From contig QHBO01000012.1 in assembly GCA_003243965.1 (NCBI GenBank), positions 75,107-139,106 on the forward strand: a stretch of 64,000 nt of DNA. The letters are read 5' to 3'. The stretch comes from Chloroflexota bacterium. Lineage in GTDB: Bacteria; Chloroflexota; Limnocylindria; QHBO01. The notes below the pieces were generated by a model. That model worked only from the letters and a program-made list of their open reading frames with translations, ran no database searches and was not told the DNA's origin. Numbering within the stretch: the first letter of the stretch is position 1; each line of letters begins with the position of its first letter. A program made the translations under genes and the position numbers. Shown piece after piece: positions 28,418 to 55,631 of this stretch.

Positions 28418-28475
28418 AGCCGAACTCGGTCGCCGAACCTGGGCGAGCGGAGGCGCGCTCGGTAGACTTCACCAG

Positions 28476-29600: not shown

Positions 29601-31093
29601 ACCTGCTGCGACCGAACGGTCGAGCGCTGGCCGGAGCGCTGGCGGGGGGCGGCAGCGCAGTGGTCGCGGCGCTGCTTGCGAACGTCGCCGGCCGCGAGAC
29701 GCCGTTCACCGCGCTGATGGTGCTGGTGGTCGCGCTGGTCGGCCTCGGCCTGGGGGCTGCCGCGGCGGTGTACGCCTATGCCGCGGCCGGCTTCGGGCTC
29801 TTTGCGTTGTCCGCCGTGGTGTACCGGGTCCCGACCAGCACGCCGGCCGACGTCCTGCGCTACGGCGCGTTCATCGTCGGGACACCGTTCGTCATCCTGC
29901 TCGCGCTGCGCGCGGAGCGGGAACGGCACGCGACCCTGGCGGCTCGGGACGTGACCGAGGCCGCAATTGCACGGGTCGAGGCCGAGCGGACCGAGACGGA
30001 TCGCGCGCGGCGCCAGGTCGACGACGCGCTGCGTGACGCGCAGCGTGAGCGTGCGCGGTTGGAGGAGGTGGCAGAGTCCATTCCCGAGCCGTTGATCGTC
30101 TACGACGCTGCATCCCAGGGCACCTACGGCAACCGCGCGGCTCTGCGCCTGTTCGGGCGCAGCTTCTTCGAGCGACCACTCGACGAATGGGGTCGCGCCG
30201 CTCGTCCCCGCGACGAGGCCGGGGACCCGCTGCCACCGGGCGAATGGCCCCAGGTCGCGGCCCAGCGATCCCCGATTCGTCGGCGGGTCATCGTCCGGCT
30301 GCCGATGTCGGGCCGCGACCTGATCGTTGACGTGGAGGGAACCCCGATCCCGGGCGGAGGCTGCGTCCTGCTGCTGCGGGACGTTGGGAAGGAGGAGGAT
30401 GAACGGCGGCGTCTGTCGCAGTTCGCCAGCTTCGTGGCCCACGAGCTGCGCAATCCGCTCGCGGTCGCAAAGGCTCGCGCGGAGCTGACCCTTCGGGAGG
30501 CCGGCCTTTCCGACCGGTCGCGAGTCCACACGGAGCGGTCGCTCGAGTCGGTAGATGCCGCCATCGGGATCCTCGAGCGACTCGAGCTCTACTCGCGGGC
30601 GGACGCCGGCCACATCGAGGCCCGACTCGAGCCGTTCCAGCTGGGCGCGGCGGTCGAGGCAGCCCTCGAGCGGCTCCGCGCCCGGGGGAGCGAGCGCGAG
30701 GTCATGGTCCGCGGTCCGATCGACACCCAGGCGCTCGGGGACCGCCACCTGGCCGAGCAGGCGATCACCAACGTGCTCACCAACGCGGACCGCTATTCGG
30801 AGCCGAACGCGCCTATCGAGATTGAGATCCAAGGCGGCGATCCGGTGGCGGTGCGGGTCAGCGACGCCGGCCCGGGGATCAGCGACGAGGTTGCGGGGCG
30901 GCTGTTTCGAGATCGGGTGGCCGGCGGCCGGGGCCTCGGCCTGGGGCTCTACCTGGTGGCCGCCACGATGAGCGCCCAGGGCGGATCGGTCCAGCTCGAG
31001 CAGCGCCGTCCGGCCGCCATCTTCGTCCTGCGCTGGCGGCGCGCATCGATCTCAGTCGGCGTCGAGGAACCGCCCGCGGTCACTCCCCGCTGA
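29597..31093 (+). CDS. Membrane sensor histidine kinase (4 TM, PAS-like, HisKA, HATPase_c)
   Basis: FVAHELRNPL H-box and G-box GLGLGLYLV. Start overlaps the J-protein stop (ATGA). No response regulator is adjacent. Confidence 0.8.
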   Translation: MNLLRPNGRALAGALAGGGSAVVAALLANVAGRETPFTALMVLVVALVGLGLGAAAAVYAYAAAGFGLFALSAVVYRVPTSTPADVLRYGAFIVGTPFVILLALRAERERHATLAARDVTEAAIARVEAERTETDRARRQVDDALRDAQRERARLEEVAESIPEPLIVYDAASQGTYGNRAALRLFGRSFFERPLDEWGRAARPRDEAGDPLPPGEWPQVAAQRSPIRRRVIVRLPMSGRDLIVDVEGTPIPGGGCVLLLRDVGKEEDERRRLSQFASFVAHELRNPLAVAKARAELTLREAGLSDRSRVHTERSLESVDAAIGILERLELYSRADAGHIEARLEPFQLGAAVEAALERLRARGSEREVMVRGPIDTQALGDRHLAEQAITNVLTNADRYSEPNAPIEIEIQGGDPVAVRVSDAGPGISDEVAGRLFRDRVAGGRGLGLGLYLVAATMSAQGGSVQLEQRRPAAIFVLRWRRASISVGVEEPPAVTPR

Positions 31094-40452: not shown

Positions 40453-40605
40453 CGGGGCGCATGGTAGCAACCGGCGGTCGGTACCACCGGTGCACCGCAA
40501 CGGGGTACTTCCGGCCAATGAGCCTTGGGGTGCGCTGCGGTCTAGCATGGTGCGGCTACGCACGCAGCGACTGCGCCCAATGAGCATTACGAGAGCGAGG
40601 AGACG

Positions 40606-41709
40606 ATGACGTCGAGCCAGCGACGACCGGGGTTCCGACTTCCGTGGTCGGGCGACTCGGAGGCCGATGAGGGCCACGCGCACGACGCGCCGCCGAGGTC
40701 GTCGACCGACGCCGGGATGATCGCGGACGCGCCCGCAGCCGAGGCCGCGCCCGCGACGACGGCGACACGAGATGTCGACGCGCCTGCAGTCGAGGCCGTC
40801 GCCGAGGCGATCGAGCGGCCGAGCGAGCCACCCAACGAGTTCCTCAAGAGCCTGGTGTCGGCAATGCGTGGTGTCGCCGAGGAGTCCCGGGAGTCGAGCG
40901 TTCACGAGTTGCAGTCGACGATCGATACGCGCGTCGAGGAGATGCGCACCCGCTCTGCCGAAGAGGCAGAGGACCTCGGCCGCCGCGCGGAGGTCGACAC
41001 GGAGGCGATCGCCGAATGGTCGCGGACCGAGATGGAGCGGATTCGCCAGGAGACCGATCGCAAGACGGAAACGCGCCGCAAGCAGCTGGACCGACAGCTG
41101 AGTGAGCATCAGCAGCGCACCGAGCGCGCGATCGAGTCGATGCAGTCGCGGGTCGAGGAGTACGAGCGCCAGCTCGGTGCCTTCTTCGCGCAGCTCGCGC
41201 AGATCGAGGACCCGGCAGAGTTCGTTGCCGCCGCCAAGCGGATACCGAGCTCGCCGGTCGCGGAGATCGGCGCCGAGTCGTCCGCGACGATCCCGACCGC
41301 CGCCTCGCTCGACGCGCGCCTGGCCCAGCTCAGTGGCCCGGAGACGAAGGCGGGAACCGGCGCCGAGGCGGGCAAGAACGGGAGCGGCGCAGCGTCCCGC
41401 AGCGCGACCGACAAGGCTGCAGAGCAGCCCGATGGGGCGCCGGCTGACGACTCGGAATCGACGACACCGGTGGTGGTCAAGGGCCTGGGGAGCTTCGGTG
41501 CGATCACCACCTTCAAGCAGGCCCTGGAGCAGGTCGACGGCGTGGGCAGCGTGGCACTCAGCCTCGGCCCGACCGGGGAGTTCGTGTACCGCGCCACACA
41601 CCAGCCCGCATTCGACCTCGTCGCGGCCATCACCCGGGTCGAGCCATCCGCGTCGGTCGACGCGCAGGCCGACGGAACGCTGCGGGTGACGGTCACCCGC
41701 GGCCGTTGA
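40606..41709 (+). CDS. Hypothetical acidic coiled-coil protein with a conserved C-terminal globular domain
   Basis: 367 aa. Glu/Arg-rich heptad region (EEMRTRSAEEAEDL...RKQLDRQL), then a C-terminal 80-aa block VVVKGLGSFGAITTFKQALEQVDGVGSV...GTLRVTVTR. Confidence 0.5.
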   Translation: MTSSQRRPGFRLPWSGDSEADEGHAHDAPPRSSTDAGMIADAPAAEAAPATTATRDVDAPAVEAVAEAIERPSEPPNEFLKSLVSAMRGVAEESRESSVHELQSTIDTRVEEMRTRSAEEAEDLGRRAEVDTEAIAEWSRTEMERIRQETDRKTETRRKQLDRQLSEHQQRTERAIESMQSRVEEYERQLGAFFAQLAQIEDPAEFVAAAKRIPSSPVAEIGAESSATIPTAASLDARLAQLSGPETKAGTGAEAGKNGSGAASRSATDKAAEQPDGAPADDSESTTPVVVKGLGSFGAITTFKQALEQVDGVGSVALSLGPTGEFVYRATHQPAFDLVAAITRVEPSASVDAQADGTLRVTVTRGR

Positions 41710-44728: not shown

Positions 44729-45466
44729 ATGGTGTTCCTCAGGCGCCGCCGGCGAACCGACGCGTCTGGCCCTCCTCCGCCGCAGGCCGTGCAGGAAGAG
44801 GTGACGGCGCAGCAGTTCGCGCTGAAGCTGACCTATCTGGCGAGGACCAGCAACGGGCTTCGGCTGCGGGCTGATTCCCGGCTCCTGGCGCTGCTGCCGG
44901 GGATCGTCGCCCCGTTGAGCCATACGCCGGTCGAGGCGCTGCCTCCGCTGCCGGTCGAGCAGAGCGACGCATCGCCGCGGATCGAGCGCTTCGAGGAGCT
45001 GCAGCGCTGGGTGGCAGCGCGTTCCACGGTGGGCGCCATCGGCCGCCACGCGCTGTTGGTGCTGGAGCTCACCGACGCCATCGACATGACCGTCGACTCG
45101 CTCGCCTGCGGCCTCCTGCACGGCGACACCGACACCACCGGATACCCCGAGTACAACGCCATCGTTGGCGGGCTCGCCAGCCACTGGGATGAGCTGTCGG
45201 GCGAGCCGATCGTGCGCTCCGTTGTGGCGTGGGGCGGCAAGGGGGTGCGTGGTGACACGGAGCGTATCGGCCAGCGGATGCTGTCCGCGCTCTACCAACA
45301 GGTGCTGGCCAGCGGGTACACGATCGGGACCTCTGACGGCGTGCGCCTGGGTGCCGGTTCCAGACGCGGTGACGGCCTGGCCTGCACGCACTGTGGCTTC
45401 GAGACGGGGAGCGCAGCCGCCTTCTACTGTCCGAAATGCGGGATGCGGATGGCGCGCGGCGCATGA
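44729..45466 (+). CDS. Hypothetical protein with a C-terminal zinc ribbon
   Basis: 245 aa ending CTHCGFE...FYCPKCG. Confidence 0.5.
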   Translation: MVFLRRRRRTDASGPPPPQAVQEEVTAQQFALKLTYLARTSNGLRLRADSRLLALLPGIVAPLSHTPVEALPPLPVEQSDASPRIERFEELQRWVAARSTVGAIGRHALLVLELTDAIDMTVDSLACGLLHGDTDTTGYPEYNAIVGGLASHWDELSGEPIVRSVVAWGGKGVRGDTERIGQRMLSALYQQVLASGYTIGTSDGVRLGAGSRRGDGLACTHCGFETGSAAAFYCPKCGMRMARGA

Positions 45467-45591
45467 CGGGGTGGGCCGACCGTCGAGGGGTACCTTCGCC
45501 GGGGCCTCCCAGGCCGGAGTCCCATTGTCGTCAGGGTGGGTCTGGCGAACACTGGTGCGGTCCGCGACCGTAGAAGCACCAGAAGGAAGCA

Positions 45592-46812
45592 ATGGCACGA
45601 CCGATCGTCCTGCTGGCGTTCTTTCCCGATGTCTCCGGGTATCGGGAGGCCCTGGAACTCGCCGGCTTTGAAGCGCTCACCGATCCTTCGGAGGCCGTGC
45701 AGCGGATGGAAGCCGGGCGCGGTCCTGACCTCGCCGTGCTTGACACCGACGGCGCGGCCGAAGGCCTCGCGGCGACGTACGCGCGACTGCACGCCAATCC
45801 GACGGTGCCGACGCTTCTCCTGTTCAGTGTCGACCCGCCGATGTTCGAGGGCACGGCCGAAACCGCGGCAAGCGACGAGTACATCCTCAAGCCGGTGCCG
45901 CCCACCGCGCTCGTCTACCGACTCCAGGCCTCACTGATCCGCACCGGCCACGCGCTGCCCGGCGAGTCCGGGTCGTGGGCGGATGCAGAGTCGCTCGCCC
46001 AGGCGCCCGTAGCCGGCGAGGGTCATGTGATCAGCGTCTTCGCTCCCAAGGGCGGGGTGGGAAAGACCACCATCTCGGTCAATGTCGCCGTGGCGCTCCG
46101 GGAGCAGACGCGATCGTCGGTGCTCCTCCTCGACGCCGACGTGGGTGTCGGGAATGTCACCTCGGTCCTGCAGGTCCCATTTCGGATCGGACTCGCGGAC
46201 CTCGCGGACTCGCCGCCATCGGATTGGACCGACGCCGCGTTCGAGCACGTGGTCTGCACGCACCCTGAGAGCGGCCTCCGAGTGCTGACCTGGGGAAACG
46301 ACCCGGGAGACTCGGAGCGGGTGAATGTCGATCTGCTGCTTGCCGCGCTCAGGTGGGCGCGTCGGCAGCACGCATACGTGGTGGTGGACAACCATCCGGG
46401 CTACGACGACCGCACCATGGCAATGCTCACCGTCGCATCCGAGATCCTTCTGGTCGTCACGCCGGAGGTCGGGCCACTGAAGAACAGCGCTCAGTTCGTC
46501 GAGCTCGCTCGGCAGGTCGGCCTCGCCGACCACATCCGGGTCGTGGCCAATCGGGCCAACCATGGCGTCAAGGTTGCCCAGATGTCGGAGACGCTCGGCC
46601 TGCCGGTGCTTGCCACCGTGATCTCGAACGGACCGAAGGCGGTGATGGCCGCCAATGAAGGCCGCCCGCTCATCACCAAGTTCCCCAGGGAGAAGATCAG
46701 CACGGACCTGCACAACGTGGCGCGGCTGATCACGCGGCAGACGGTGACGACGACCGGTCCGGCAGGGCGACGCTGGTGGCTGCCGTTCGCGTCCCGCACG
46801 TCCCAGGCCTGA
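45592..46812 (+). CDS. Receiver-like domain fused to a ParA/MinD-type ATPase (CpaE/TadZ-like architecture)
   Basis: N-terminal roughly 120 aa is CheY-like (LAVLDTDG). It is followed by the deviant Walker A VFAPKGGVGKTTISVN and a MinD-like fold. The SD AGAAGGAAG precedes the ATG. Confidence 0.7.
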   Translation: MARPIVLLAFFPDVSGYREALELAGFEALTDPSEAVQRMEAGRGPDLAVLDTDGAAEGLAATYARLHANPTVPTLLLFSVDPPMFEGTAETAASDEYILKPVPPTALVYRLQASLIRTGHALPGESGSWADAESLAQAPVAGEGHVISVFAPKGGVGKTTISVNVAVALREQTRSSVLLLDADVGVGNVTSVLQVPFRIGLADLADSPPSDWTDAAFEHVVCTHPESGLRVLTWGNDPGDSERVNVDLLLAALRWARRQHAYVVVDNHPGYDDRTMAMLTVASEILLVVTPEVGPLKNSAQFVELARQVGLADHIRVVANRANHGVKVAQMSETLGLPVLATVISNGPKAVMAANEGRPLITKFPREKISTDLHNVARLITRQTVTTTGPAGRRWWLPFASRTSQA

Positions 46813-46972
46813 GACCCGCGCGGCCCTTCCCGCTACAAGCGCATGCCGCATCATCCGGATGCAGTGCGCGCGGCAGTCGTTGCGCGGGCCGCCATCCACT
46901 GCCATCATGCGCCGGGCCGTTCCGACGCAACGCTTCTCGTCCTGCCGCCGCCGGCTCCCACTGACCGATGAG

Positions 46973-47419
46973 ATGCCGACCTACGATTACCGCTGCCGAT
47001 CGTGCGGGCATACGATCGAAGTCATCCACTCCATGCTCGACAAGGGCCCCAGCTCCTGCGGGGTATGCGGTGGCGAGCTGAAGCGCGTCTTCTACCCGAC
47101 CGGAATCATCTTCAAGGGAAGCGGCTTCTACAAGACCGATTCACGGCGAGCGGACCGACGGCCGTCGACCGCCGACGGATCGTCCTCGGGATCGCCCGCC
47201 TCGAGCGGCGACGGATCGTCGGCGACGGCCGGTTCCGGCTCCGGTGGCTCAAGCTCAAGCTCCGGCTCCAGCTCAAGCTCGGGCTCCGGCGGCTCAAGCT
47301 CGGGCTCGGGCGGCTCCGGCTCCAGGGAGGGGGGCCACGGCGCCAACTCCACCGAAGGGGGCAGCACGAGCCCATCGGCACCGCCACGCAAGGCTTCGTC
47401 GGGCTCCGAAGGCGACTGA
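46973..47419 (+). CDS. FmdB-family zinc-ribbon protein with a Gly/Ser-rich C-terminal tail
   Basis: MPTYDYRCRSCGH...CGVCGG CxxC...CxxC ribbon, then about 90 aa of G/S low complexity. Confidence 0.65.
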   Translation: MPTYDYRCRSCGHTIEVIHSMLDKGPSSCGVCGGELKRVFYPTGIIFKGSGFYKTDSRRADRRPSTADGSSSGSPASSGDGSSATAGSGSGGSSSSSGSSSSSGSGGSSSGSGGSGSREGGHGANSTEGGSTSPSAPPRKASSGSEGD

Positions 47420-47453
47420 TCGGCGCGTGCCGCTCGGCGCCACGCGCCGATCA
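47417..47453. terminator. Bidirectional GC hairpin between convergent genes; both stop codons lie in the arms
   Basis: TGATCGGCGCGTG-(11 nt)-CACGCGCCGATCA: 13-bp perfect inverted repeat read directly. The arms begin with the FmdB TGA and end with the complement of the downstream gene's TGA. Confidence 0.45.
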
Positions 47454-49103
47454 GGCCGAACGGGTCTGAGGTGACCCGCAGCGACGGCAGAAGCGCGCCG
47501 ATGCCGAAAGAGAGAGGCCGCAGCTGTCGCAGCTCTGGATGGCGACCGCGCTGATGCCCTCGGCCACTTGGCGAGCCGACGCGTCCCAGATGGTCTCGGC
47601 TTCACCGCCGCGGCCGCGAGCTTCTCGCTCGGACCGATGCGGACCCGCACCGGACGAGCGGTAGGGGAGGCTCACCGGCTGCGCGGGCGCGACCGTCCCG
47701 CGGCCCGGATCTTCGAGCCCGAGAAGGTCGAACTGCGCCTTGCGACCGGCGAGCGACGGACCATCCGCCTCCGCCGCGAGGCGGTCGCCGGTAGGGGCGA
47801 TCGATCGACCGCGGACGAGGGTCGCGCCGATGGGGGTGATCGGACCGCGGGCCGGCATCGCCTCGACCTTGGGCTCGACATGCTCCCCCTCGGGCTCCGT
47901 GGCGGCATGGGGTGGACTCGCCGGCCGGGTGCCGGTGGGCGCACGGATCGCCGCGTCCGGGTCGAGCTCGTTCTGGGACGACTCGGGGAGCTCAGCGGCG
48001 ACGTCCTGCTCGACGCTCGTCTCGACGAGCAGGGGCGACGGCGGCGCCATGGGCCGCTCGATCGCCTCGTTGGCGGCAAGATCCTTCGAGACCGCCGCCT
48101 CGGCAACGACGTCCGGCATCACCTCGCTGTCGGCGACCTCCGGCTCCGAGACCGCCGCCGCCTCGGCAACGACGTCCGGCATCACGGCGTCCTCGGATAC
48201 GGCGGGCGCGGGTTCCGCGGCGGCGCCCTGAATCGTGGCGGGCGGTTCCAGTCGCTGGGCCCCGTCGCTGACGGACGTGATCGGCTCGGCCGGCGCCGGC
48301 TCGAGCTCGAACGCAACGTCCTGCTCCCAGCTGACCGGCACGGGGGGAGGCGCCGATTCGGTTTCGGGGCCCGCGGCGACCGCCTCGTGCGCCAGTTCGG
48401 CGAGCGTCGGCTGCGGCACAGCGTCCGCCTCGTGGATTCCCTCCTCCAGGATCACCGGAGGAGGGTCACTCGGCGCCGCCGACGGTGCAGATTCACGCAC
48501 GGTCGGCGCGATCTCAGCTGCGGGAGACTGCTCCTCTGCGGTGGGCGCCTCCGATCGAGCCGCTGCCGCCACCGGCGTCTCGAGATCGATGACTCGATCT
48601 GTCAGACCTTGCGGGTCGAAGCTGCCGACTCGATCCGCGAGGTCGCTGTGCGGCCAGGTGTCAACACGCCCCTCGCCGTCCTCTTCCACGCGCGCACCCG
48701 GGCCGGGGTCCGGCGCCGGTGGAGTGGCGAGTGCGGCGGGGACGGCCACCCCGGGCGTCGACGATGGAATGCCGGTCGGTTCGTTCCCCTCCTCCGTAGG
48801 AGCGCAGGTCCGGCAGCACCACATCGCGTCGTTCCAGCAGGCCACGCACGTGTACTGGCGGCACGTCATGCAGAAGTTGAACGACTCTCCGAACGCGTCG
48901 AGCTGGCGCGCCGCCAGGTGATCATGCTCGGTGCGGATGGCTCTACCGATCGCGTCGCCCAACGCATCCTGGCTCATGAGGTAGTTCTTCAGCCCCGCGA
49001 CCACGCCCCGGGTCCTGCGCAGCGGGTTGAGCCGGGTGGGGGAGGCGATCCGGTAGCGCGTGCCGCAGCGTTCGCAGAAGGATTCGGTGAGGGCTTGCGA
49101 CAT
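47451..49103 (-). CDS. Hypothetical protein: N-terminal Cys-rich zinc-binding module, long disordered Pro/Ala/Glu-rich region with an internal repeat, C-terminal zinc ribbon
   Basis: N-terminus has CERCG...CMTCRQYTCVACWNDAMWCCRTC. C-terminus has CDSCG...CRRCG. The middle about 400 aa is low complexity with a duplicated VMPDVVAEAA block. Confidence 0.55.
   Translation of the reverse strand: MSQALTESFCERCGTRYRIASPTRLNPLRRTRGVVAGLKNYLMSQDALGDAIGRAIRTEHDHLAARQLDAFGESFNFCMTCRQYTCVACWNDAMWCCRTCAPTEEGNEPTGIPSSTPGVAVPAALATPPAPDPGPGARVEEDGEGRVDTWPHSDLADRVGSFDPQGLTDRVIDLETPVAAAARSEAPTAEEQSPAAEIAPTVRESAPSAAPSDPPPVILEEGIHEADAVPQPTLAELAHEAVAAGPETESAPPPVPVSWEQDVAFELEPAPAEPITSVSDGAQRLEPPATIQGAAAEPAPAVSEDAVMPDVVAEAAAVSEPEVADSEVMPDVVAEAAVSKDLAANEAIERPMAPPSPLLVETSVEQDVAAELPESSQNELDPDAAIRAPTGTRPASPPHAATEPEGEHVEPKVEAMPARGPITPIGATLVRGRSIAPTGDRLAAEADGPSLAGRKAQFDLLGLEDPGRGTVAPAQPVSLPYRSSGAGPHRSEREARGRGGEAETIWDASARQVAEGISAVAIQSCDSCGLSLSASARFCRRCGSPQTRSA
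48089..48186. repeat. Imperfect tandem duplication, about 60-nt period, inside the disordered-protein gene
   Basis: gagaccgccgcc(gcc)tcggcaacgacgtccggcatcac occurs at 48089-48123 and again at 48149-48186. Confidence 0.8.
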
Positions 49104-49231
49104 CGGGTCTTCGACATCCTTCGGGAGTGGCGGCTCGGGAGCCGAAGAATACGAGCCGCCACCTGCTCTCCCAAGGACGCATTGGTACCCGTCGGGAAGC
49201 CGTTCGTACCGTGCGTGCTAGCATCGGCCCG

Positions 49232-49990
49232 ATGGGGATGCTGTCCCGGGTCGAGACGTTCCTCGAGCGCCTTTTCGAGGCTCCCGCAGGGCGCATGGGG
49301 GCGACCCTTCAACCGGTCTCGATCGCGCGCCGCCTCGAGCGGGCGATGGACAGCAACAAGTCGTTCCAGGACGACGGCGTGGTGGTGCCCAACCAGTACG
49401 AGGTGCACCTCAGCCCGCCGGACTACCAGCGCTTCGCCCCCCGCCGAGGGTCGCTCGAAGACGACCTAGCGCATGGGCTGCTGGCGCGGACCCGGCACGA
49501 GCGGTACATCCTCGTCGCGCGGCCCCGCGTCCAGATCGTGTCGGACCCGGCTGTGCGCCGCGGCGACGCGCGGATCGCGGCCAATGTCGTCGACGAGGAG
49601 GGAGGGCGGCTGCGAGCCGACGTGCCGATGCCCGGGATGAGCGACACGATGATCTTCGCCCCCGTTCGGGGCGACGAGCAGCCTCCCGACTCGGCGATGC
49701 GAGCGTATCTGCTGGTGCGGACCGATGGCGGCTCGCCGGTCCAGTTCGATCTTGGCGGCCCGCTGATCACCATCGGGCGGGCCAGCGATAACGATGTCAT
49801 CGTCGACGACGTGCAGGTCAGCCGGCACCATTGCCAGCTGAAGCTCCAGCACGGCGCCTACAGTTTTGCCGATCTCGGCAGCCGGAATGGCTCGCTGGTC
49901 AATGGCCAGCCGGTGAGCGAGATCGCGCTGGGACCGGGAGACGTGATCCGCATCGGAGGGACGGTGATCGACTTCCAGGTGCGCGGATGA
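49232..49990 (+). CDS. fhaA: FhaA-like protein (DUF3662 N domain plus C-terminal FHA domain)
   Basis: N-terminal MGMLSRVETFLERLFE (DUF3662-like). C-terminal FHA domain (IGRASDNDVIVDD..VSRHHCQL...GSRNGSLVNG). Confidence 0.75.
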   Translation: MGMLSRVETFLERLFEAPAGRMGATLQPVSIARRLERAMDSNKSFQDDGVVVPNQYEVHLSPPDYQRFAPRRGSLEDDLAHGLLARTRHERYILVARPRVQIVSDPAVRRGDARIAANVVDEEGGRLRADVPMPGMSDTMIFAPVRGDEQPPDSAMRAYLLVRTDGGSPVQFDLGGPLITIGRASDNDVIVDDVQVSRHHCQLKLQHGAYSFADLGSRNGSLVNGQPVSEIALGPGDVIRIGGTVIDFQVRG

Positions 49991-50430
49991 CCGGGGATGC
50001 GCTCCGGATTCTGCTGCTCGGCGCCCAGCTCGGTTTCCTGCTTCTCCTGTACCTGATCCTCTTTGGTTTCGCTCGCTCGCTGGTGCGCGACCTGCGCAGC
50101 GCCGAGCATGCACAGCTCGCCTCGCGCACGGGGATCGGCCGCCTCGCCGTGCTGGAGTCGCCGGAGGACGAGCCGCCCCAAGGGCGGACCATCTCCCTCG
50201 GCCCGATCAACTCCATCGGCCGCAACGTGAACAACACGATCTACGTGGAGGACGAGTTCGCGAGCGCGAACCACGCGATGCTGACCTTTCGCGGTCGCTC
50301 GTGGTTCGTCGAGGACCAGGGAAGCACCAACGGGACCCTGGTCAACGGTCACCGCATCGACCGACCGGTCGCGCTGTCGTATGGCGACGAGATCTCAGTC
50401 GGCCGGGTCCGCATGCGGCTGGAGCGCTAG
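49987..50430 (+). CDS. fhaB: FhaB-like membrane-anchored FHA-domain protein
   Basis: Transmembrane helix LLLGAQLGFLLLLYLILFGF, then an FHA domain (IGRNVNNTIYVEDEFASANHAML...GSTNGTLVNG). ATGA overlap with fhaA. Confidence 0.7.
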   Translation: MTGDALRILLLGAQLGFLLLLYLILFGFARSLVRDLRSAEHAQLASRTGIGRLAVLESPEDEPPQGRTISLGPINSIGRNVNNTIYVEDEFASANHAMLTFRGRSWFVEDQGSTNGTLVNGHRIDRPVALSYGDEISVGRVRMRLER

Positions 50431-50437
50431 CCGACCG

Positions 50438-51757
50438 ATGCGCCTGGCCTGGCGGGGGACCGAGCTCTGGCTGCTGCTGCCCCTGCTGCTGCTGGTGCCG
50501 CTCGGGTTTGTGATCACCCATGTCGCCGAGTCGCAGGTGCTCGAGCCAGGGCCGCTGGGCCTGGCCACGGCCTACGTCGCACTCGTGCTCGCAGCGCATC
50601 TGGTGTTGGTGCTCTCCGGCCACCGCGGCGATCAGCTGTTGCTGCCGCTGGTCGCCACCATCGGCGCGATCGGGATCGTGATGCTCAACCGTCTGCCGGG
50701 CGGCACCTCGCTGCTCGGGCTGAACATTGGTCTGGCGGTGACCCAGGTGGCGTGGTTCGGGATCGGGCTGATCGCCATGCTGGCGGTCGCCATCGGCTTC
50801 CGCGATGACGGCCTGCTGCGCCACTACAAGTACACCTGGGCCGCGGGCGGAGTGGCGCTGCTGGTGTTCACCATCCTGTTCGGCACGGAGATCAATGGGG
50901 CGCGGCTGTGGATCTACATCGGGCCGATCGGCTTTCAGCCGGGCGAGTTCATCAAGATCGTACTGGTCATCTTCATCGCCGGCTACCTCGCGGAGAATCG
51001 CGCGCTCCTCGCCGGGGCGAGCTACCGGATCGGCCCGATCTCGGTGCCGCCGCTGCCCTACCTGCTCCCGATGCTCGCCATCTTCTTCGGCGTGATGCTG
51101 GTCGTGGCAGTCAGCAACGACCTGGGAACGGCGCTGCTGTTCTTCGGCATCTTCCTGACGATGCTCTTCGTCGCCACCGGCCGGCGGAGCTACGTGCTGA
51201 TCGGCCTGCTCCTGTTCGTCACCGGCTCGTACGTGGCATATCGGCTCTTCGCTCACGTGCGGCTCCGCGTCGACGTGTGGCTCGACCCGTTCGCCGATCC
51301 AAGCGGCGCGGGCTACCAGATCGTCCACGCGCTGTATGCGTTCGGCCGCGGAGGACTCTTCGGTGACGGGCTGGGGCGCGGCCTGCTGCCGACCGTGCCG
51401 GGCTTCTTCGCGATCCAGACTGACTTCATCTTCACCGCGATCGCCGAAGAGCTCGGGCTGGTCGGGGCGTTCGCGCTGCTGGCGTTCGCGGTGTTCCTGG
51501 TGTTCCGTGGTCTACGGGTCGCGGTGCTCGCCCGGGACGAGTTCAGCAGCCTGCTCGCCGTCGGGCTGACCACCAGCATCGGGCTGCAGACCCTGATCAT
51601 CGTGGCGGGCAACGCCAAGCTGATTCCGCTCACCGGCATCACGTTTCCGTTCCTGTCGTACGGTGGCTCGAGCATCCTGGCCAGCTTCCTGATCATCGGT
51701 CTGTTGCTCTCGATCAGCCACCGCGCGGCCGCTGAAGGCGACCAGGTGCCGCGGTGA
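50438..51757 (+). CDS. rodA: SEDS-family peptidoglycan glycosyltransferase (RodA/FtsW)
   Basis: 439 aa with about 10 transmembrane segments and SEDS motifs (GAQRWI-like GARLWIYIGPIGFQPGEF, IFTAIAEELG). Confidence 0.8.
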   Translation: MRLAWRGTELWLLLPLLLLVPLGFVITHVAESQVLEPGPLGLATAYVALVLAAHLVLVLSGHRGDQLLLPLVATIGAIGIVMLNRLPGGTSLLGLNIGLAVTQVAWFGIGLIAMLAVAIGFRDDGLLRHYKYTWAAGGVALLVFTILFGTEINGARLWIYIGPIGFQPGEFIKIVLVIFIAGYLAENRALLAGASYRIGPISVPPLPYLLPMLAIFFGVMLVVAVSNDLGTALLFFGIFLTMLFVATGRRSYVLIGLLLFVTGSYVAYRLFAHVRLRVDVWLDPFADPSGAGYQIVHALYAFGRGGLFGDGLGRGLLPTVPGFFAIQTDFIFTAIAEELGLVGAFALLAFAVFLVFRGLRVAVLARDEFSSLLAVGLTTSIGLQTLIIVAGNAKLIPLTGITFPFLSYGGSSILASFLIIGLLLSISHRAAAEGDQVPR

Positions 51758-53304
51758 TCGTCACCAACGCGCGCCGGCTCGGCCTCTACCTCCTGCTCAG
51801 CTTTGCCCTTGTCTCGGGCGGCCTTGCGTACTGGCAGGTGGTCGATGCGCAGCAGCTCGCCAGCCGGCCGGACAACCCAGAGGTCATCGCGGCGCGCAGA
51901 AGCGCTCCTCGCGGCTCGATCTTCGATGCCACCGGAAAGCTGCTGGCATCGACGGCCATCAGCGCCGGCCTCGCGCGTCGGACCTACACCGACGCCGCGT
52001 TCACCCACCTCCTCGGCTACGCCAGCCTACGCTTCGGGGCGACCGGATTGGAGCAGGCATTCGACGACGTGCTGAGCGGACGCAGCGACCCGAACCCGCT
52101 GCGCGACATCCTCGACAAGGCGCTGTCCCGCCCGCCGGAGCCCAAGGACCTGAGCCTCACCCTTGACCAGAGGCTCCAGGACTTCGTCGCCAAGCAGCTC
52201 GGAGCCTCGGTCGGTGCGATCGTGGCGCTCGACCCGAGGACCGGTGCCCTCCTGGCCATGACCTCGACACCGACGTTCGACGCGACACCGATCTCGGGGG
52301 ACCCAAACAGCGCCGGCGGCGCGATGACACGCCTCCAGTCCGCGGCGGACAGGCCACTGATCGACCGCGCCCGGCAGGGCTCCTACACGCCGGGGTCGGT
52401 GATGAAGGTCTTCACCGCTGCCGCGGCGCTCGACGCCGGAGCCATCACGCCGGAGACGACCTTCCCCGACCAGCCGAAAGAGGAGACCCAGGGCTTCACG
52501 GTGCAGGGCTTTCGGATCACCGAGCACGACCTCGGGCAGGGAGTGCAGCCTGCGCTTTGGCCGCTTTCGCCCGCAATGCAGGTGAGCAGCAACATCTTCT
52601 TTGCCCATGTCGGCCTGAAGCTGGGTGCCGAGCGTTTCCTGGAGTACGCGCGCCGCTTCGGGTTCTGCGCGCCGCTCCAGATCGGTGATTCGCCCAACGC
52701 GCTTCCGGTTGGAACGTCCTACGTCACCGCGCGAGCCTCCGGCGGGGGCTGCACGCCCTTCGCCGATGACGTCGAGCTGGCCTCGGCGTCGTTCGGACAG
52801 GCGCAGGTACATGTGACGCCGCTGCAGATGGCGCTCGTGGCGGCCACCATCGCCAACGGCGGTGTGATGCCGCACCCGTACGCGGTGGCCGATGTGCGGG
52901 CCCATGCCGCCGGTGCCCAGCGCAGCGATGCGGTCGTCCAGCGCTACAGCGGCGGTGGAGGCAGCCAGCTGGTCGGCGGACAGGTCGCCGACGAGGTTCG
53001 GAAGGCGATGGTCGACGCGGTGCAGGCGCCGCTCGGGAGCCTGTATGCGGGCGCCGCAGCGGTTCGCCTGTACGGGGTCAGCGGGGTCGACACCGCGGGG
53101 AAGACCGGTACCGCGCAGCGTGGCGGCAACCTCGCGCCCCACTCGTGGTTCATCGGCTTCGCCCCCGCGCAGGGCGGCGGCACGCCGTCGATCGCCGTCG
53201 CGGTCCTGATCGAGGGAGGCGGGCCAGGCTCGGGCAATGCCGCGCCGATCGGCGGGAGGGTGATGGCGGAGTGGCTGCGACTGCAGAGCGCGTCGGGCGG
53301 TTGA
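51754..53304 (+). CDS. pbpA: Class B penicillin-binding protein (PBP2/PbpA-like transpeptidase)
   Basis: SxxK (GSVMK), SxN (SSN) and KTGT motifs. N-terminal signal-anchor. Overlaps rodA by 4 nt. Confidence 0.85.
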   Translation: MIVTNARRLGLYLLLSFALVSGGLAYWQVVDAQQLASRPDNPEVIAARRSAPRGSIFDATGKLLASTAISAGLARRTYTDAAFTHLLGYASLRFGATGLEQAFDDVLSGRSDPNPLRDILDKALSRPPEPKDLSLTLDQRLQDFVAKQLGASVGAIVALDPRTGALLAMTSTPTFDATPISGDPNSAGGAMTRLQSAADRPLIDRARQGSYTPGSVMKVFTAAAALDAGAITPETTFPDQPKEETQGFTVQGFRITEHDLGQGVQPALWPLSPAMQVSSNIFFAHVGLKLGAERFLEYARRFGFCAPLQIGDSPNALPVGTSYVTARASGGGCTPFADDVELASASFGQAQVHVTPLQMALVAATIANGGVMPHPYAVADVRAHAAGAQRSDAVVQRYSGGGGSQLVGGQVADEVRKAMVDAVQAPLGSLYAGAAAVRLYGVSGVDTAGKTGTAQRGGNLAPHSWFIGFAPAQGGGTPSIAVAVLIEGGGPGSGNAAPIGGRVMAEWLRLQSASGG

Positions 53305-53419: not shown

Positions 53420-54379
53420 GTGAAGAACGTCCAGGAATCGGCGGAGCGCGTCGTCGCGAACGTCGAGCGCGTGATCGTCGGCAAGCACGCCGAAGTCCGA
53501 ACGGCGCTCGTGGCGCTGCTGTGTGAGGGGCACATCCTGATCGAGGACGTCCCCGGCGTCGGCAAGACAATGCTCGCCAAGGCCCTCAGTCGCAGTATCG
53601 GCTGCACGTTCCGCCGCATCCAGTTCACGCCCGACCTGCTGCCGTCGGACGTCACCGGCCTCTCGATCTTCAATCAGAAGGTCCAGGAGTTCGAGTTCCG
53701 GCCCGGGCCGATCATGGCCCAGGTGGTACTCGCCGACGAGATCAATCGCGCGACGCCTAAGACGCAGAGCGCGCTGCTCGAATGCATGGAGGAGCGCCAG
53801 GCCACGATCGACGGGGTGAGCTACGCGATGCCGAGCCCCTTCCTGGTGATCGCCACCCAGAACCCGATTGAGTACGAGGGCACCTTTGCCCTCCCGGAGG
53901 CGCAGCTCGATCGGTTCATGCTTCGCCTGCGCCTGGGCTACCCCAAGCCGATGGAGGAGCTGGTCATCCTGGACGAGCAGAAGCGCCTGCACCCGATCGA
54001 CAGCATCGCCCAGGTGCTCGGTGTCGAGGAGCTTCGGCTGATGCAGACCGCCGTCAAGGAGGTCTATGTCGACCAGGCAGTCGCGGAGTACATCGTCCGG
54101 CTGGTGACGGCCACGCGGGAGCATCCCGACGTCTACCTCGGGGCCTCGCCCCGCGGCTCGATCAACCTGTACCGCGCCTCTCAGGCGCTGGCCGCCCTCG
54201 ATGGTCGCGACTACGTCATTCCCGACGACGTCAAGACACTGGCGGTCGCCGTCCTGGCGCACCGGCTGATCGTCAAGAGCCAGGCGTCGCTGCGGGAGAT
54301 TGATCCGGACGCCATCGTGCGCGAGGTGCTGGCCGGAGTGCCGGTCCTCGAGCCCGCCGCTGCCAGACCATCGGCCTGA
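53420..54379 (+). CDS. MoxR-family AAA+ ATPase
   Basis: Walker A GVPGVGKT, Walker [10 protein letters not shown], and the MoxR-specific C-terminal lid. GTG start. Confidence 0.85.
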
Positions 54380-54401
54380 TCGCCACCAGAGCGAACGCGC
54401 A

Positions 54402-55631
54402 GTGCTCGCACTTCTCCGCCAACTCCGCTTCGTCTTCCTCGGCACCGTGCTGGTGGTGGCGGCCTTCAGCACCGGCATCAGCTTCCTGTTCTTCCTCGTC
54501 TACCTCCTCGCGGCGCTGGTCCTCGGATCCTGGCTCTACGCCCGCCGCGGCCTGCGCGGCCTGCGCGCCGGGTACCACATCCTCAACCCGCGGGCCCAGG
54601 TCGGCGACGTGCTGGAAGGGGTCTATCGCATCGACAACGCGACCCGCTGGGCCAAGCCGTGGGTCGAGCTCTGGAACGAGTCGACACTTCCGGCGCCGCT
54701 GCCCGGACGGGCGATCGGCGTGCGCCCCCTGGGGAGTCGCCAGTGGCTGGCGAAGGTGGGTCTCACCCGGCGCGGCACGTACCGGCTCGGGCCGCTGCGC
54801 GTCCGCACCGGCGATCCGTTCGGGCTGTTCACGTCGGAGATGGTGGTCGGTCAGCCGACCGGGGTGGTGGTCTTTCCCAAGGTCCACCCGCTGCCGCACT
54901 GGCGCCTCCCGCCTTCCCCGGTCGACGGGACGATGCAGAGCCGTCGGCGCTTCGACGCCTCGTCGCCGCTGGTCAGCACCATCCGTCCCTACGTCCACGG
55001 CGACGCGATCAACAAGATTCACTGGCTGTCGAGCGTTCGCCACAACGAGCTGCATGTGAAGGAGTTCGACCTCGAGCAGACGGCCGACCTGTGGATCACC
55101 CTCGATCTCGAGCGTGGCAGCCATGCCGGTGCAGGAGATCGCGCCTCGGTCGAGGCAGCCGTCAGCGCCGCCGCCTCGATCGCGGTCCACACGCTCGGGG
55201 AGAATCGCGCGGTGGGCCTCACCGCGTCGTCTCGGCGTATGCAGGTGCTGACGCCCGACCGCGGTCACCGGGTTGAGCAGAAGATCCTGCACCTGATGGC
55301 CAACGTGCAGGCCGATGGCTCGCAGCCGCTCGCCGAGGTGGTGGTCGGGACCCTCCCACAGCTCCGGCGGGGAATGACCCTGTGCCTGATCACCGGCTCG
55401 ACCGAGCGGGACTGGGTCCGGGCTCTCGCCTCCCTGCGCCGGCGGGGAATCGGCACCGTGGTGGTTCTGGTCGATCGCGCCTCGTTCGTGGAGCGCGAGG
55501 ACGAGGACAGTCGTGCCGAGCTGGCGGCGGTGCGCCACGCACTTGCCGAATACGACATTGCTCACCACGTGGTTGCCGCGGGCGACGACCTCGGCGAAGC
55601 GCTGGGCGGAAGGCAGGCCGTGCGTGTCTAG
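54402..55631 (+). CDS. DUF58 family protein (MoxR partner)
   Basis: N-terminal two transmembrane segments, then a DUF58 core (IRPYVHGDAINKIHW). Confidence 0.75.
   Translation: MLALLRQLRFVFLGTVLVVAAFSTGISFLFFLVYLLAALVLGSWLYARRGLRGLRAGYHILNPRAQVGDVLEGVYRIDNATRWAKPWVELWNESTLPAPLPGRAIGVRPLGSRQWLAKVGLTRRGTYRLGPLRVRTGDPFGLFTSEMVVGQPTGVVVFPKVHPLPHWRLPPSPVDGTMQSRRRFDASSPLVSTIRPYVHGDAINKIHWLSSVRHNELHVKEFDLEQTADLWITLDLERGSHAGAGDRASVEAAVSAAASIAVHTLGENRAVGLTASSRRMQVLTPDRGHRVEQKILHLMANVQADGSQPLAEVVVGTLPQLRRGMTLCLITGSTERDWVRALASLRRRGIGTVVVLVDRASFVEREDEDSRAELAAVRHALAEYDIAHHVVAAGDDLGEALGGRQAVRV

What the first reader, a model, noticed from the sequence alone, without database searches (positions are those of the whole stretch)
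44729..49103. Receiver-ParA/MinD-like ATPase flanked by three zinc-ribbon proteins, directly upstream of fhaA-fhaB-rodA-pbpA
Four consecutive genes have no Tad-pilus or chromosome-partition context: a 245-aa protein with a C-terminal ribbon, a TadZ/CpaE-architecture ATPase, an FmdB ribbon with a 90-aa Gly/Ser tail, and a convergent 550-aa protein with a Cys-rich N-terminus, a 400-aa disordered repeat-containing linker and a C-terminal ribbon. They sit beside the FHA/SEDS/PBP cell-wall module. This looks like an undescribed positioning or regulatory system for cell-wall synthesis.
Basis: inference. Interest (0 to 1): 0.6.

Follow-up and report, generated by a model that had tools for sequence, protein, structure and literature searches.

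The report
Orphan MinD-like ATPase gene set
An uncultured soil Chloroflexota lineage keeps a MinD/ParA-type "positioning" ATPase that is not part of a pilus or chromosome-partition system. The ATPase shares a conserved upstream DNA motif with a coiled-coil protein and a zinc-ribbon scaffold protein next to the cell-wall synthesis operon, which points to a possible new cell-organising system that has not been shown experimentally.

Summary
**Observation: confirmed.** All four ORFs are coding and are conserved, in the same order, in about 80 genomes of the class Limnocylindria.

**The four proteins**
- B is a two-domain protein: a receiver-like domain plus a MinD/ParA ATPase. It has an invariant KGGVGKTT motif and a conserved basic/aromatic C-terminal tail that resembles a MinD membrane anchor.
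- No tad or parB genes lie within 10 kb in any genome, or anywhere in the window.
- C is an ordinary FmdB-family protein with the layout described for Ruc.
- A and D belong to no known family.

**Interpretation: partly supported.**
- Synteny is uninformative, because the whole 22-kb block from tig to the transglutaminase is frozen across the class.
- B's nearest relatives outside the class (31–37% identity) are orphans in unrelated contexts, often followed by a DUF6812 gene.

**New evidence found here.** A sense-oriented element, GTACnnnBGG, lies about 100–115 nt upstream of exactly three genes:
- B: 77 of 79 loci
- D: 37 of 51 loci
- a coiled-coil protein, cc367, 5 kb upstream: 24 of 35 loci
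- each of 13 control genes, including A and C: 0–2 hits

D's copy abuts the fhaA −10 element.

**Best reading (confidence 0.42).** B, cc367 and D form a co-regulated MinD-type positioning module. A and C are unproven neighbours. The link to cell-wall synthesis is inferred only.

**Verdict.** New variant of a known kind; moderate interest.

The parts
40480..40514 (+). Two tandem GGTACnnnCGG elements (GGTACCACCGG at 40480-40490, GGTACTTCCGG at 40504-40514) upstream of cc367. A candidate -10 (TAGCAT) lies at 40543-40548.
   Evidence: GTAC is found at -90 to -130 in 32 of 35 orthologous loci, and the extended motif in 24 of 35. A GTAC...TAGGAT/TAGCAT-type layout is present in 50 of 58 loci.
40606..41709 (+). 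cc367, a 367-aa coiled-coil protein. It has a conserved N-terminal basic peptide (MT.NQRRPGFRLPW), an acidic disordered stretch, a coiled coil and a conserved C-terminal domain of about 70 aa. Candidate partner or activator of B.
   Evidence: (Apolipoprotein-like coiled coil, below cut-off). The C-terminal domain resembles the small protein encoded just upstream of a distant B relative (hhalign probability 60-80%). It carries the same upstream element as B and D.
44729..45466 (+). A, a 245-aa conserved protein of unknown family. It has an N-terminal MSFLRRKK motif followed by a poly-Pro stretch, a conserved core and a C-terminal C4 zinc ribbon.
   Evidence: No Pfam or NCBIfam family. The AF2 model is unusable (pLDDT 42). 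No GTAC element upstream (0 of 74 loci).
45489..45553 (+). Control region of B: GGTACCTTCGC at 45489-45499, GTCCCATTG at 45519-45527 (containing a TTGTCG candidate -35 at 45525-45530), and AACACT candidate -10 at 45548-45553.
   Evidence: Class-wide invariant bases in the A-B spacer. RNAalifold finds no consensus structure. GTACnnnBGG is present in 77 of 79 loci.
45592..46812 (+). B, a 406-aa protein: receiver-like domain, disordered linker, MinD/ParA ATPase, and a conserved C-terminal tail (RRWWxRFGxRTSxA).
46973..47419 (+). C, a 148-aa FmdB-family protein (TIGR02605, Zn_ribbon_8): zinc ribbon plus a 90-aa Ser/Gly tail.
   Evidence: The family description of Ruc is in PMC7448276. No GTAC element upstream (0 of 79 loci).
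47451..49103 (-). D, a 550-aa protein. It has an N-terminal 8-Cys domain, a variable Ala/Pro/Glu-rich linker carrying conserved short motifs (WPxxDL, ARRAQLDLLGLGDPG, LPYRSxGA, FWEASAREVA), and a C-terminal C4 ribbon.
49146..49210 (-). Control region of D: GGTACGAACGG (49210 to 49200), GGTACCAATG (49189 to 49180), and candidate -10 TATTCT (49151 to 49146; TATACT in most of the class).
   Evidence: GTAC is present in 51 of 51 loci and the extended motif in 37 of 51.
49216..49224 (+). Extended -10 of fhaA (TGCTAGCAT), starting 5 nt after D's element and ending 7 nt before the fhaA ATG. The mRNA is probably leaderless.
   Evidence: A TAnnAT hexamer ends 6-10 nt before the start codon in 56 of 56 loci.
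49232..53304 (+). fhaA (49232-49990), fhaB (49987-50430), rodA/ftsW-family SEDS gene (ORF 50381-51757), and a pbpA-type transpeptidase (51754-53304).
   Evidence: FhaA_N plus FHA; FHA; FTSW_RODA_SPOVE; PBP_dimer_2 plus Transpeptidase. (FhaB_Rv0019c, 94 bits, below the cut-off of 125).

Best explanation
**What it is.** B is an orphan member of the MinD/ParA ATPase family with the two-domain layout of TadZ/CpaE.

**Proposed mechanism (inferred).**
- B acts as an ATP-driven switch: ATP binding dimerises it through the signature lysine of KGGVGKTT.
- The dimer attaches to the membrane through its short basic/aromatic C-terminal tail.
- The receiver-like domain serves as a protein-binding surface rather than a phosphorylation site. 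It keeps the Asp and the Lys-Pro but lacks the acidic pair and the Thr/Ser.

**Who works with it.**
- B is transcribed from its own conserved promoter. That promoter carries an upstream element also found, at the same distance and in the same orientation, before two other genes.
- The first is cc367: an N-terminal basic peptide, a coiled coil and a C-terminal domain. This is the layout of an ATPase-activating scaffold such as PomX.
- The second is D: zinc modules joined by a long disordered linker with conserved short motifs, which suggests an adaptor.
- These three genes are the likely functional unit.
- A is a tightly conserved neighbour that may be a second partner, since it also has a conserved basic N-terminus. 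C is an ordinary FmdB-family protein, with the layout described for Ruc.
- The unit probably organises division or elongation in space, because D's control element abuts the promoter of fhaA-fhaB-rodA-pbpA.

**Shown:** domain content, conservation, absence of Tad or Par neighbours, and the shared cis-element.

**Inferred:** membrane binding, partner identity, and the target process.
For: **B's family and features**
- B's ATPase domain is closest to MinD and FlhG/FleN, both in sequence and in fold. Its whole length aligns only to 3FKQ.
- K153-T160 (KGGVGKTT) is invariant, as are D51, D53, K100 and P101.
- The C-terminal tail is conserved after a variable linker. Its hydrophobic moment is 0.77, above the 95th percentile of B's own 10-mers, and its net charge is +4.
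- Many 30-37% relatives end in similar basic/hydrophobic tails.

**Context**
- No tad or parB genes lie in the window or around the orthologues.
- None were seen around eight distant relatives.

**Shared cis-element**
- GTACnnnBGG in sense orientation at -80 to -130: B 77/79, D 37/51, cc367 24/35.
- Controls: 0-2 hits for each of 13 other genes, roughly 540 gene-locus pairs in all.
- The distance from the element to the candidate -10 is the same, about 59-60 nt, in all three promoters.
- GGTACNNNCGG occurs 5 times in the window against 1.5 expected. Three of the five are in these promoters.

**Candidate partners**
- cc367 and A both have conserved basic N-terminal peptides. This is the hallmark of ParA/MinD activators described in PMC7993993.
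- cc367's C-terminal domain resembles the protein encoded just upstream of a distant B relative.
Against: - No experiment exists and the organisms are uncultured.
- The cis-element is a sequence pattern only. No transcription factor is known and no transcription start sites have been mapped.
- The motif was defined from these same loci. The orthologous sites are not independent, so the real sample is three promoters.
- Chance placement of the 10-mer in one further spacer of this region is about 0.03 by my own estimate.
- In the window itself, B's copy has one mismatch.
- The similarity between cc367 and the neighbour of the distant relative is marginal (hhalign probability 60-80% against a single sequence) and was seen in only one or two of eight contexts.
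- The whole 22-kb block is syntenic across the class, so adjacency to fhaA carries little weight.
- Whole genomes were not inspected, so a Tad locus, or MinC/MinE, could lie elsewhere.
- The MinD tail sequences used for comparison were recalled from memory.
Confidence: 0.42

Rival explanations
1. The genes are functionally unrelated neighbours in a slowly rearranging chromosomal block. B is an orphan ATPase of unknown role, C is a chaperone, and A and D are unrelated lineage-specific proteins. The fhaA operon only happens to be next door.
For: - The whole region from tig, clpP and clpX to moxR, DUF58 and the transglutaminase keeps the same order in all 80 loci. Housekeeping genes such as valS are therefore just as 'linked'.
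- C belongs to a ubiquitous family.
- A and C lack the shared element.
- Outside the class, B's relatives sit in unrelated contexts.
Against: - A conserved, oriented element at the same distance upstream of B, D and cc367, and of none of 13 control genes, is hard to explain without common regulation.
- cc367 and A carry the N-terminal basic peptides typical of ParA/MinD partners.
Confidence: 0.3
2. B is a true TadZ/CpaE that positions a Tad (Flp) pilus machine encoded elsewhere in the genome.
For: - Source annotations call most orthologues 'pilus assembly protein CpaE'.
- The two-domain layout matches 3FKQ, which from my own knowledge is a TadZ.
- A weak hit to TIGR03815, the actinobacterial CpaE homologue.
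Against: - According to the preprint read, TadZ is found in Tad systems. No tad genes lie within ±10 kb in the gene lists, in the 64-kb window, or around eight distant relatives.
- TIGR03815 scores 46.8 bits against a cut-off of 154.
- In sequence, B is nearer to MinD and FlhG than to 3FKQ, which was not among the PDB sequence hits at 1e-5.
- B has its own promoter, which it shares in design with non-pilus genes.
Confidence: 0.08
3. B is the lineage's Min-type division-site selector only: it inhibits or recruits FtsZ. It has no specific connection to FhaA/FhaB/RodA/PbpA, and A, C and D are irrelevant.
For: - The best family hits are archaeal and bacterial MinD.
- The tail resembles a MinD membrane anchor.
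Against: - Scores fall far below the MinD equivalog cut-offs: 83.5 against 201.75, and 70.8 against 212.9.
- No minC or minE is adjacent.
- MinD does not carry the extra receiver-like domain.
- The element shared with D and cc367 argues for dedicated partners.
Confidence: 0.12
4. The cluster is a proteostasis or stress module: a Ruc-like chaperone (C) with zinc-ribbon redox sensors (A, D), close to tig, clpP and clpX.
For: - Ruc-family genes often neighbour chaperone and protease genes.
- tig, clpP and clpX lie 5-9 kb upstream.
- All three ribbon proteins have Cys4 sites that could sense oxidation.
Against: - C lacks the element shared by B, D and cc367.
- A MinD/ParA ATPase has no known role in proteostasis.
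- valS and an MscS channel gene lie between the Clp genes and the cluster.
Confidence: 0.05

Closest known systems
TadZ/CpaE (the ParA/MinD-like ATPase of Tad pilus systems; PDB 3FKQ, which from my own knowledge is a TadZ)
   Same: Both have an N-terminal receiver-like domain followed by a ParA/MinD ATPase. 3FKQ is the only solved structure that aligns over B's whole length.
   Different: - B is not encoded in a tad locus.
- It shares only 12% identity with 3FKQ, and the domain orientation does not superpose (rmsd 13.5 Å).
- TIGR03815 scores far below its cut-off.
- B keeps the full KGGVGKTT motif and has a conserved C-terminal tail.
MinD of the MinCDE system, and the related FlhG/FleN
   Same: - These are the best sequence and fold matches for B's ATPase domain.
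- B has the deviant Walker A with the signature lysine.
- B ends in a short basic/hydrophobic C-terminal tail, like the MinD membrane-targeting sequence.
   Different: - B has an extra receiver-like domain and a disordered linker.
- Scores are below the MinD equivalog cut-offs.
- No minC or minE gene is adjacent.
PomXYZ of Myxococcus xanthus (PMC7993993)
   Same: This is a resemblance in design only. Both have a ParA/MinD ATPase, a scaffold with an N-terminal basic activating peptide and a coiled coil (PomX here, cc367 there), and a second largely disordered partner (PomY here, D there). PomXYZ positions cell division.
   Different: - No sequence homology of cc367 or D to PomX or PomY was tested or is claimed.
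- PomZ works on the nucleoid, whereas B is predicted to bind the membrane.
- B has a receiver-like domain.
FmdB/Ruc family (M. tuberculosis Rv0991c; PMC7448276)
   Same: C has the family's N-terminal four-Cys ribbon of about 50 aa and a hydrophilic disordered tail. It scores above the curated cut-offs of TIGR02605 and PF09723.
   Different: - The tail is 90 aa, longer than the 7-61 aa range reported.
- Direct alignment to Rv0991c was not done.
- Chaperone activity has not been tested.
The actinobacterial fhaA-fhaB-pstP-rodA-pbpA-pknA-pknB operon (PMC11898655)
   Same: The same core is present in the same order: FhaA_N plus FHA, FHA, a SEDS protein, and a class B PBP.
   Different: - No phosphatase or Ser/Thr kinase genes are in the cluster.
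- fhaA is short (252 aa) and probably leaderless.
- It is preceded by D, which is transcribed divergently.

Membership tests
TadZ/CpaE | Encoded within, and functioning with, a Tad/Flp pilus gene cluster (tadA/cpaF, tadBC, flp, rcpA) | tested here: not met
   - No such genes in the window genes scanned.
- None in the ±10 kb gene lists of two orthologous contigs.
- None around eight distant relatives.
- Whole genomes were not inspected.
TadZ/CpaE | N-terminal atypical receiver domain followed by a ParA/MinD-like ATPase domain | tested here: met
   The AF2 model shows this layout. Foldseek aligns 3FKQ over 408 columns. Response_reg gives a weak hit (E 0.039). The acidic pair and the Thr/Ser are not conserved, but D51 and K100-P101 are invariant.
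TadZ/CpaE | Match to a curated family model (TIGR03815, the actinobacterial CpaE homologue) | tested here: not met
   46.8 bits against a cut-off of 154.45.
MinD (septum site-determining ATPase) | Match to the equivalog models TIGR01968 and TIGR01969 | tested here: not met
   70.8 bits against 212.9, and 83.5 bits against 201.75.
MinD (septum site-determining ATPase) | Deviant Walker A (xKGGxGKT) with the signature lysine | tested here: met
   P152-K153-G154-G155-V156-G157-K158-T159-T160 are invariant in 56 sequences.
MinD (septum site-determining ATPase) | C-terminal amphipathic membrane-targeting sequence | tested here: inconclusive
   The tail RRWWxRFGxRTSxA is conserved, with a hydrophobic moment of 0.77 and net charge +4. 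The AF2 model has low confidence in that region. Membrane binding has not been tested.
MinD (septum site-determining ATPase) | Partner genes minC and/or minE | tested here: not met
   Not in the window or in the flanks of the loci. The rest of the genome was not seen.
ParA/Soj chromosome or plasmid partition ATPase | Adjacent parB (or another centromere-binding partner) and a match to partition ParA models | tested here: not met
   No ParB_N gene is nearby. NF041546 scores 58.8 bits against a cut-off of 180.
ParA/MinD superfamily (P-loop NTPases with a deviant Walker A) | Pfam ParA, CbiA and AAA_31 above the gathering score, plus a MinD-like fold | tested here: met
   48, 47.3 and 46.8 bits, all above their cut-offs. 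Foldseek probability is 1.00 to MinD, FleN, Soj and McdA.
FmdB family (protein C) | CxxC...CxxC ribbon matching TIGR02605 and PF09723 above the curated cut-offs | tested here: met
   60.8 bits against 31.3, and 52.6 bits against 34.4.
Ruc (redox-regulated chaperone; protein C) | Hydrophilic, disordered C-terminal region that is not conserved in sequence | tested here: met
   The 90-aa tail is 39% Ser and 26% Gly and is not conserved between orthologues.
Ruc (redox-regulated chaperone; protein C) | Zinc binding and oxidation-activated chaperone activity | not testable with these tools
   This needs biochemistry. Direct alignment to Rv0991c was also not done.
PomXYZ-type positioning system (analogy only) | Partner with a conserved, positively charged N-terminal peptide that activates the ATPase | tested here: inconclusive
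   cc367 (MT.NQRRPGFRLPW) and A (MSFLRRKK) both have conserved basic N-termini. ATPase activation has not been tested. The criterion comes from PMC7993993.

The most novel reading that the evidence does not exclude
B, cc367 and D (possibly with A) form a previously undescribed MinD-type positioning system specific to the class Limnocylindria. A dedicated transcription factor controls it through phased GGTACnnnCGG sites, and one of those sites also gates the leaderless fhaA-fhaB-rodA-pbpA operon. The system would place or time SEDS/PBP-dependent wall synthesis or division in a lineage whose cluster lacks the PknA/PknB/PstP genes of the actinobacterial operon.
Probability: 0.25. Interest if true: 0.7.

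Novelty: new variant of a known kind. Interest (0 to 1): 0.48.

Why it matters
- ParA/MinD ATPases organise many bacterial cargos, but their partners are not conserved and have to be found case by case.
- Chloroflexota cell biology is almost unexplored, and this class is abundant in soils yet uncultured.
- A MinD-like ATPase with new partners, wired by a shared cis-element to the FhaA/FhaB/RodA/PbpA operon, would offer a testable entry point into how these bacteria place division or wall growth.
- It would also be a second example, after PomXYZ, of a scaffold-based ATPase system.
- If the rival holds and the genes are unrelated neighbours, the finding reduces to one more orphan ATPase subfamily and three uncharacterised lineage-specific proteins.

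Tried and rejected
- **Structure of A.** The AF2 model from 45 homologues was unusable (pLDDT 42), so no fold search was run. The profile of A against PDB sequences gave nothing.
- **Structured RNA in the A-B spacer.** The conservation is strong, but RNAalifold found no pairs and Rfam found nothing in 38-56 kb. I read the spacer as a promoter/operator instead.
- **Promoter and terminator scan.** The generic σ70 and terminator scan of 44.4-49.4 kb was uninformative.
- **Partners of distant relatives.** hhalign of the A, C and D families against the neighbours of distant B relatives (DUF6812, small upstream proteins) showed no similarity. Only cc367 gave a marginal match.
- **Synteny outside the class.**
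  - Every best-first list is saturated by Limnocylindria.
  - Only B's 50%-identity representatives reached further.
  - Most of their contigs are short.
- **Alternative promoter readings.** I considered σ54-type and ECF-type readings of the GTAC elements. The spacings do not fit B or cc367.
- **Literature.** No papers were found on DUF6812. One taxonomy paper mentions Limnocylindria together with cell division, and I did not read it. The search on Limnocylindria and pili found nothing relevant.
- **Unused search.** The third large protein search was not used, because its top-120 output could not have reached outside the class.

Full report
**Source and gene map**

- The window is about 70% G+C. 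It comes from an uncultured Chloroflexota bacterium of the class Limnocylindria.
- The ATPase region is 97% identical to a contig of MAG 'KAP bin26'. Protein A is identical to a 'Chloroflexi bacterium' protein, DLM71_02775.
- All four ORFs of the finding have the codon-position G+C pattern of real genes.
- The local order is: tig, clpP, clpX, an MscS channel gene (minus strand), a 367-aa coiled-coil protein (cc367, 40606-41709), valS, A, B, C, D (minus strand), fhaA, fhaB, rodA, pbpA, moxR, DUF58, transglutaminase.

Yes, in every particular. There are two small corrections.
- C starts at ATG 46973, giving 148 aa.
- D's 'repeat' is a single 63-nt tandem duplication. It lies in a stretch that most orthologues lack.

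A has no family, but its four C-terminal cysteines are invariant. D has eight conserved cysteines in its first 100 residues and four at the C-terminus. Between them is an Ala/Pro/Glu-rich, indel-rich linker that still carries conserved short motifs: WPxxDL, ARRAQLDLLGLGDPG, LPYRSxGA and FWEASAREVA.

**The ATPase (B)**

- *Family hits.* Pfam and NCBIfam place residues 145-385 in the ParA/MinD superfamily. MinD models score best, but all equivalog scores fall far below their cut-offs, including the actinobacterial CpaE homologue. In PDB sequences the nearest are MinD and FlhG/FleN.
- *Structure.* The AF2 model (mean pLDDT 73, about 85-93 over most of the N-terminal domain) shows a receiver-like β-α fold without helix 4, a disordered linker (121-142) and a MinD fold. 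Foldseek gives MinD-type ATPases for the C-terminal domain. Only 3FKQ, deposited as an 'NtrC-like two-domain protein' and to my knowledge a TadZ, aligns over the whole length.
- *Conserved residues.* KGGVGKTT is invariant. D51, D53 and K100-P101 of the receiver-like domain are invariant, but the acidic pair after β1 and the Thr/Ser after β4 are not conserved. I therefore read this domain as a pseudo-receiver.
- *C-terminal tail.* After a variable linker, every orthologue ends in RRWWxRFGxRTSxA. This short, basic, aromatic segment has a high hydrophobic moment. Many 30-37% relatives end in comparable tails such as GGFLKKLFR or GLLGRLFGG. This resembles the MinD membrane-targeting sequence. The MinD sequences used for comparison are from my memory.

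**C is ordinary**

It passes the curated cut-offs of the FmdB family. It also fits the description of Ruc (Rv0991c): a four-Cys ribbon plus a hydrophilic, unconserved, disordered tail. That family is reported in 100% of the Chloroflexi genomes surveyed (PMC7448276). Imperfect nucleotide repeats encode the Ser/Gly tail.

**Neighbourhood conservation**

- B's orthologues (59-67% identity) were found in 147 species-level genomes. All of the 80 best either belong to Limnocylindria or are short contigs binned elsewhere.
- In every locus long enough to judge, the order valS-A-B-C-D(-)-fhaA-fhaB-rodA-pbpA is kept. So is everything from tig to the transglutaminase.

**Relatives outside the class**

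- In a library clustered at 50% identity, all orthologues collapse into one cluster. The next full-length relatives are only 31-37% identical.
- I recovered the contexts of eight of them. None has tad genes and none has an FHA/SEDS/PBP module.
- Four are followed by a small DUF6812 gene, often with overlapping stop and start codons.
- In one such locus, and perhaps a second, the gene just upstream encodes a small protein whose C-terminal domain resembles that of the window's cc367. The hhalign probability is 60-80%, which is marginal.

**A shared control element**

This is the main new result.

- *The A-B spacer.* It has nearly constant length (109-184 nt) and invariant bases across the class. 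RNAalifold finds no structure, so the conservation lies in the DNA sequence.
- *The motif.* It is GTACyTTyGG, about 105 nt before B's ATG. The same 10-mer lies about 100 nt before cc367. On the minus strand it lies about 107 nt before D, as GGTACGAACGG.
- *Counts across the 80 or so loci.* Sense-oriented GTACnnnBGG at -80 to -130 is present upstream of:

| Gene | Loci with the element |
|---|---|
| B | 77 of 79 |
| D | 37 of 51 (bare GTAC in 51 of 51) |
| cc367 | 24 of 35 (bare GTAC in 32 of 35) |
| each of 13 other genes | 0-2 (A 0/74, C 0/79, fhaA 2/56) |

- *Stricter form.* The stricter 10-mer, GTAC[CT]T[CT][CT]GG, occurs 95 times in 1.2 Mb of loci (both strands). All of these lie outside the 16 mapped genes, and 75 lie upstream of B.
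- *Common layout.* The distance from the element to the best -10-like hexamer is about 59-60 nt in all three promoters. cc367 and D have a second copy at about 38 nt, and B has a degenerate one (GAGTCCCATTG).
- *Within the window.* GGTACNNNCGG occurs five times against 1.5 expected. Three of the five are in these promoters.
- *Caveats.* The motif was derived from these data. The orthologous sites are inherited, so the independent sample is three promoters. No regulator is known.

Even so, a common transcription-factor site is the simplest reading. It redraws the unit as cc367 + B + D, with A and C left outside it.

**Link to the cell-wall operon**

- D's distal element (49200-49210) ends 5 nt before the extended -10 of fhaA (TGCTAGCAT, 49216-49224).
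- That hexamer ends 6-10 nt before the fhaA start codon in 56 of 56 loci. fhaA-fhaB-rodA-pbpA is therefore probably transcribed as a leaderless mRNA.
- A factor bound at D's element would sit on the fhaA promoter. Apart from adjacency, this is the only specific evidence connecting the module to wall synthesis, and it is inference.
[quoted passage not shown] The terms ParA, MinD and Ssd did not turn up an ATPase partner in that paper. The kinase and phosphatase genes are missing from this cluster.

**How it probably works**

- ParA/MinD ATPases cycle between monomer and ATP-bound dimer. A partner stimulates them, usually through an N-terminal stretch rich in positive charges grafted onto an interaction domain (PMC7993993).
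- Two candidates have such a stretch. cc367 has a highly conserved MT.NQRRPGFRLPW, followed by an acidic disordered region, a coiled coil and a C-terminal domain. A has a conserved MSFLRRKK followed by poly-Pro.
- I therefore propose the following. Membrane-bound B-ATP dimers interact through the receiver-like domain and the dimer cleft with a cc367 scaffold and the D adaptor. cc367, and/or A, triggers hydrolysis. The resulting pattern positions a division or elongation component.
- By design this resembles PomXYZ. By ancestry B is a MinD/TadZ-like protein. No homology between the partners is claimed.

**Verdict**

- B is not a member of TadZ in the functional sense, nor of MinD or ParA by the curated criteria. 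It is a new, class-restricted subfamily of the superfamily.
- The partners A, D and cc367 belong to no described family. C is a known kind.
- The shared cis-element lifts the case above mere adjacency. Function, membrane binding, partners and the tie to wall synthesis all remain untested, and the organisms are uncultured.
- Overall: a new variant of a known kind, of moderate interest.

Noticed in passing
window 49216-49234, and the orthologous position in 56 loci: A TAnnAT -10-like hexamer (with an extended TG) ends 6-10 nt before the fhaA start codon in 56 of 56 loci. The fhaA-fhaB-rodA-pbpA transcript is therefore probably leaderless across the class.
   Followed up: partly
L084 11269-11613, L086 12169-12666, L088 7564-7860; also the contig of P0249: In other Chloroflexota, the nearest non-orthologous relatives of B (31-35% identity) are followed by a small DUF6812 (PF20660) gene, often with overlapping stop and start codons. 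This is a recurrent two- or three-gene module with no literature.
   Followed up: partly
window 46813-46972 (B-C spacer): Class-wide conserved blocks (TTGCGC ... CTGCCATCATGCG ... GCCGTTCCGACG) that fit a σ70-like -35/17 nt/-10 promoter for C. C therefore probably has its own promoter.
   Followed up: no
window 47237-47325: Imperfect 6-27-nt tandem repeats at the DNA level encode the Ser/Gly tail of C. This could make the tail length unstable.
   Followed up: no
window 48092-48217: A 63-nt (21-aa) tandem duplication inside D's linker, with 76% identity between the copies. It lies in a stretch that most orthologues lack.
   Followed up: partly
window 53420-57933: A MoxR AAA ATPase, a DUF58 protein and a transglutaminase-like membrane protein (TgpA_N plus Transglut_core) lie directly after pbpA. 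The arrangement is conserved in all loci long enough to show it.
   Followed up: no
window 22912-28417: A cyanophycin synthetase-like gene (959 aa), a cyanophycinase (Peptidase_S51) and a separate Mur-ligase-domain protein lie side by side.
   Followed up: no
window 28404-31093: A DnaJ-domain protein is immediately followed by an orphan histidine kinase (HisKA plus HATPase_c), with no response-regulator gene seen next to them. It is the only kinase in the window that could in principle address B's receiver-like domain, but B lacks the acidic pocket.
   Followed up: no
window 8919-9221: A 100-aa ORF with extreme codon bias (GC3 0.96, GC1 0.46) and no Pfam family.
   Followed up: no
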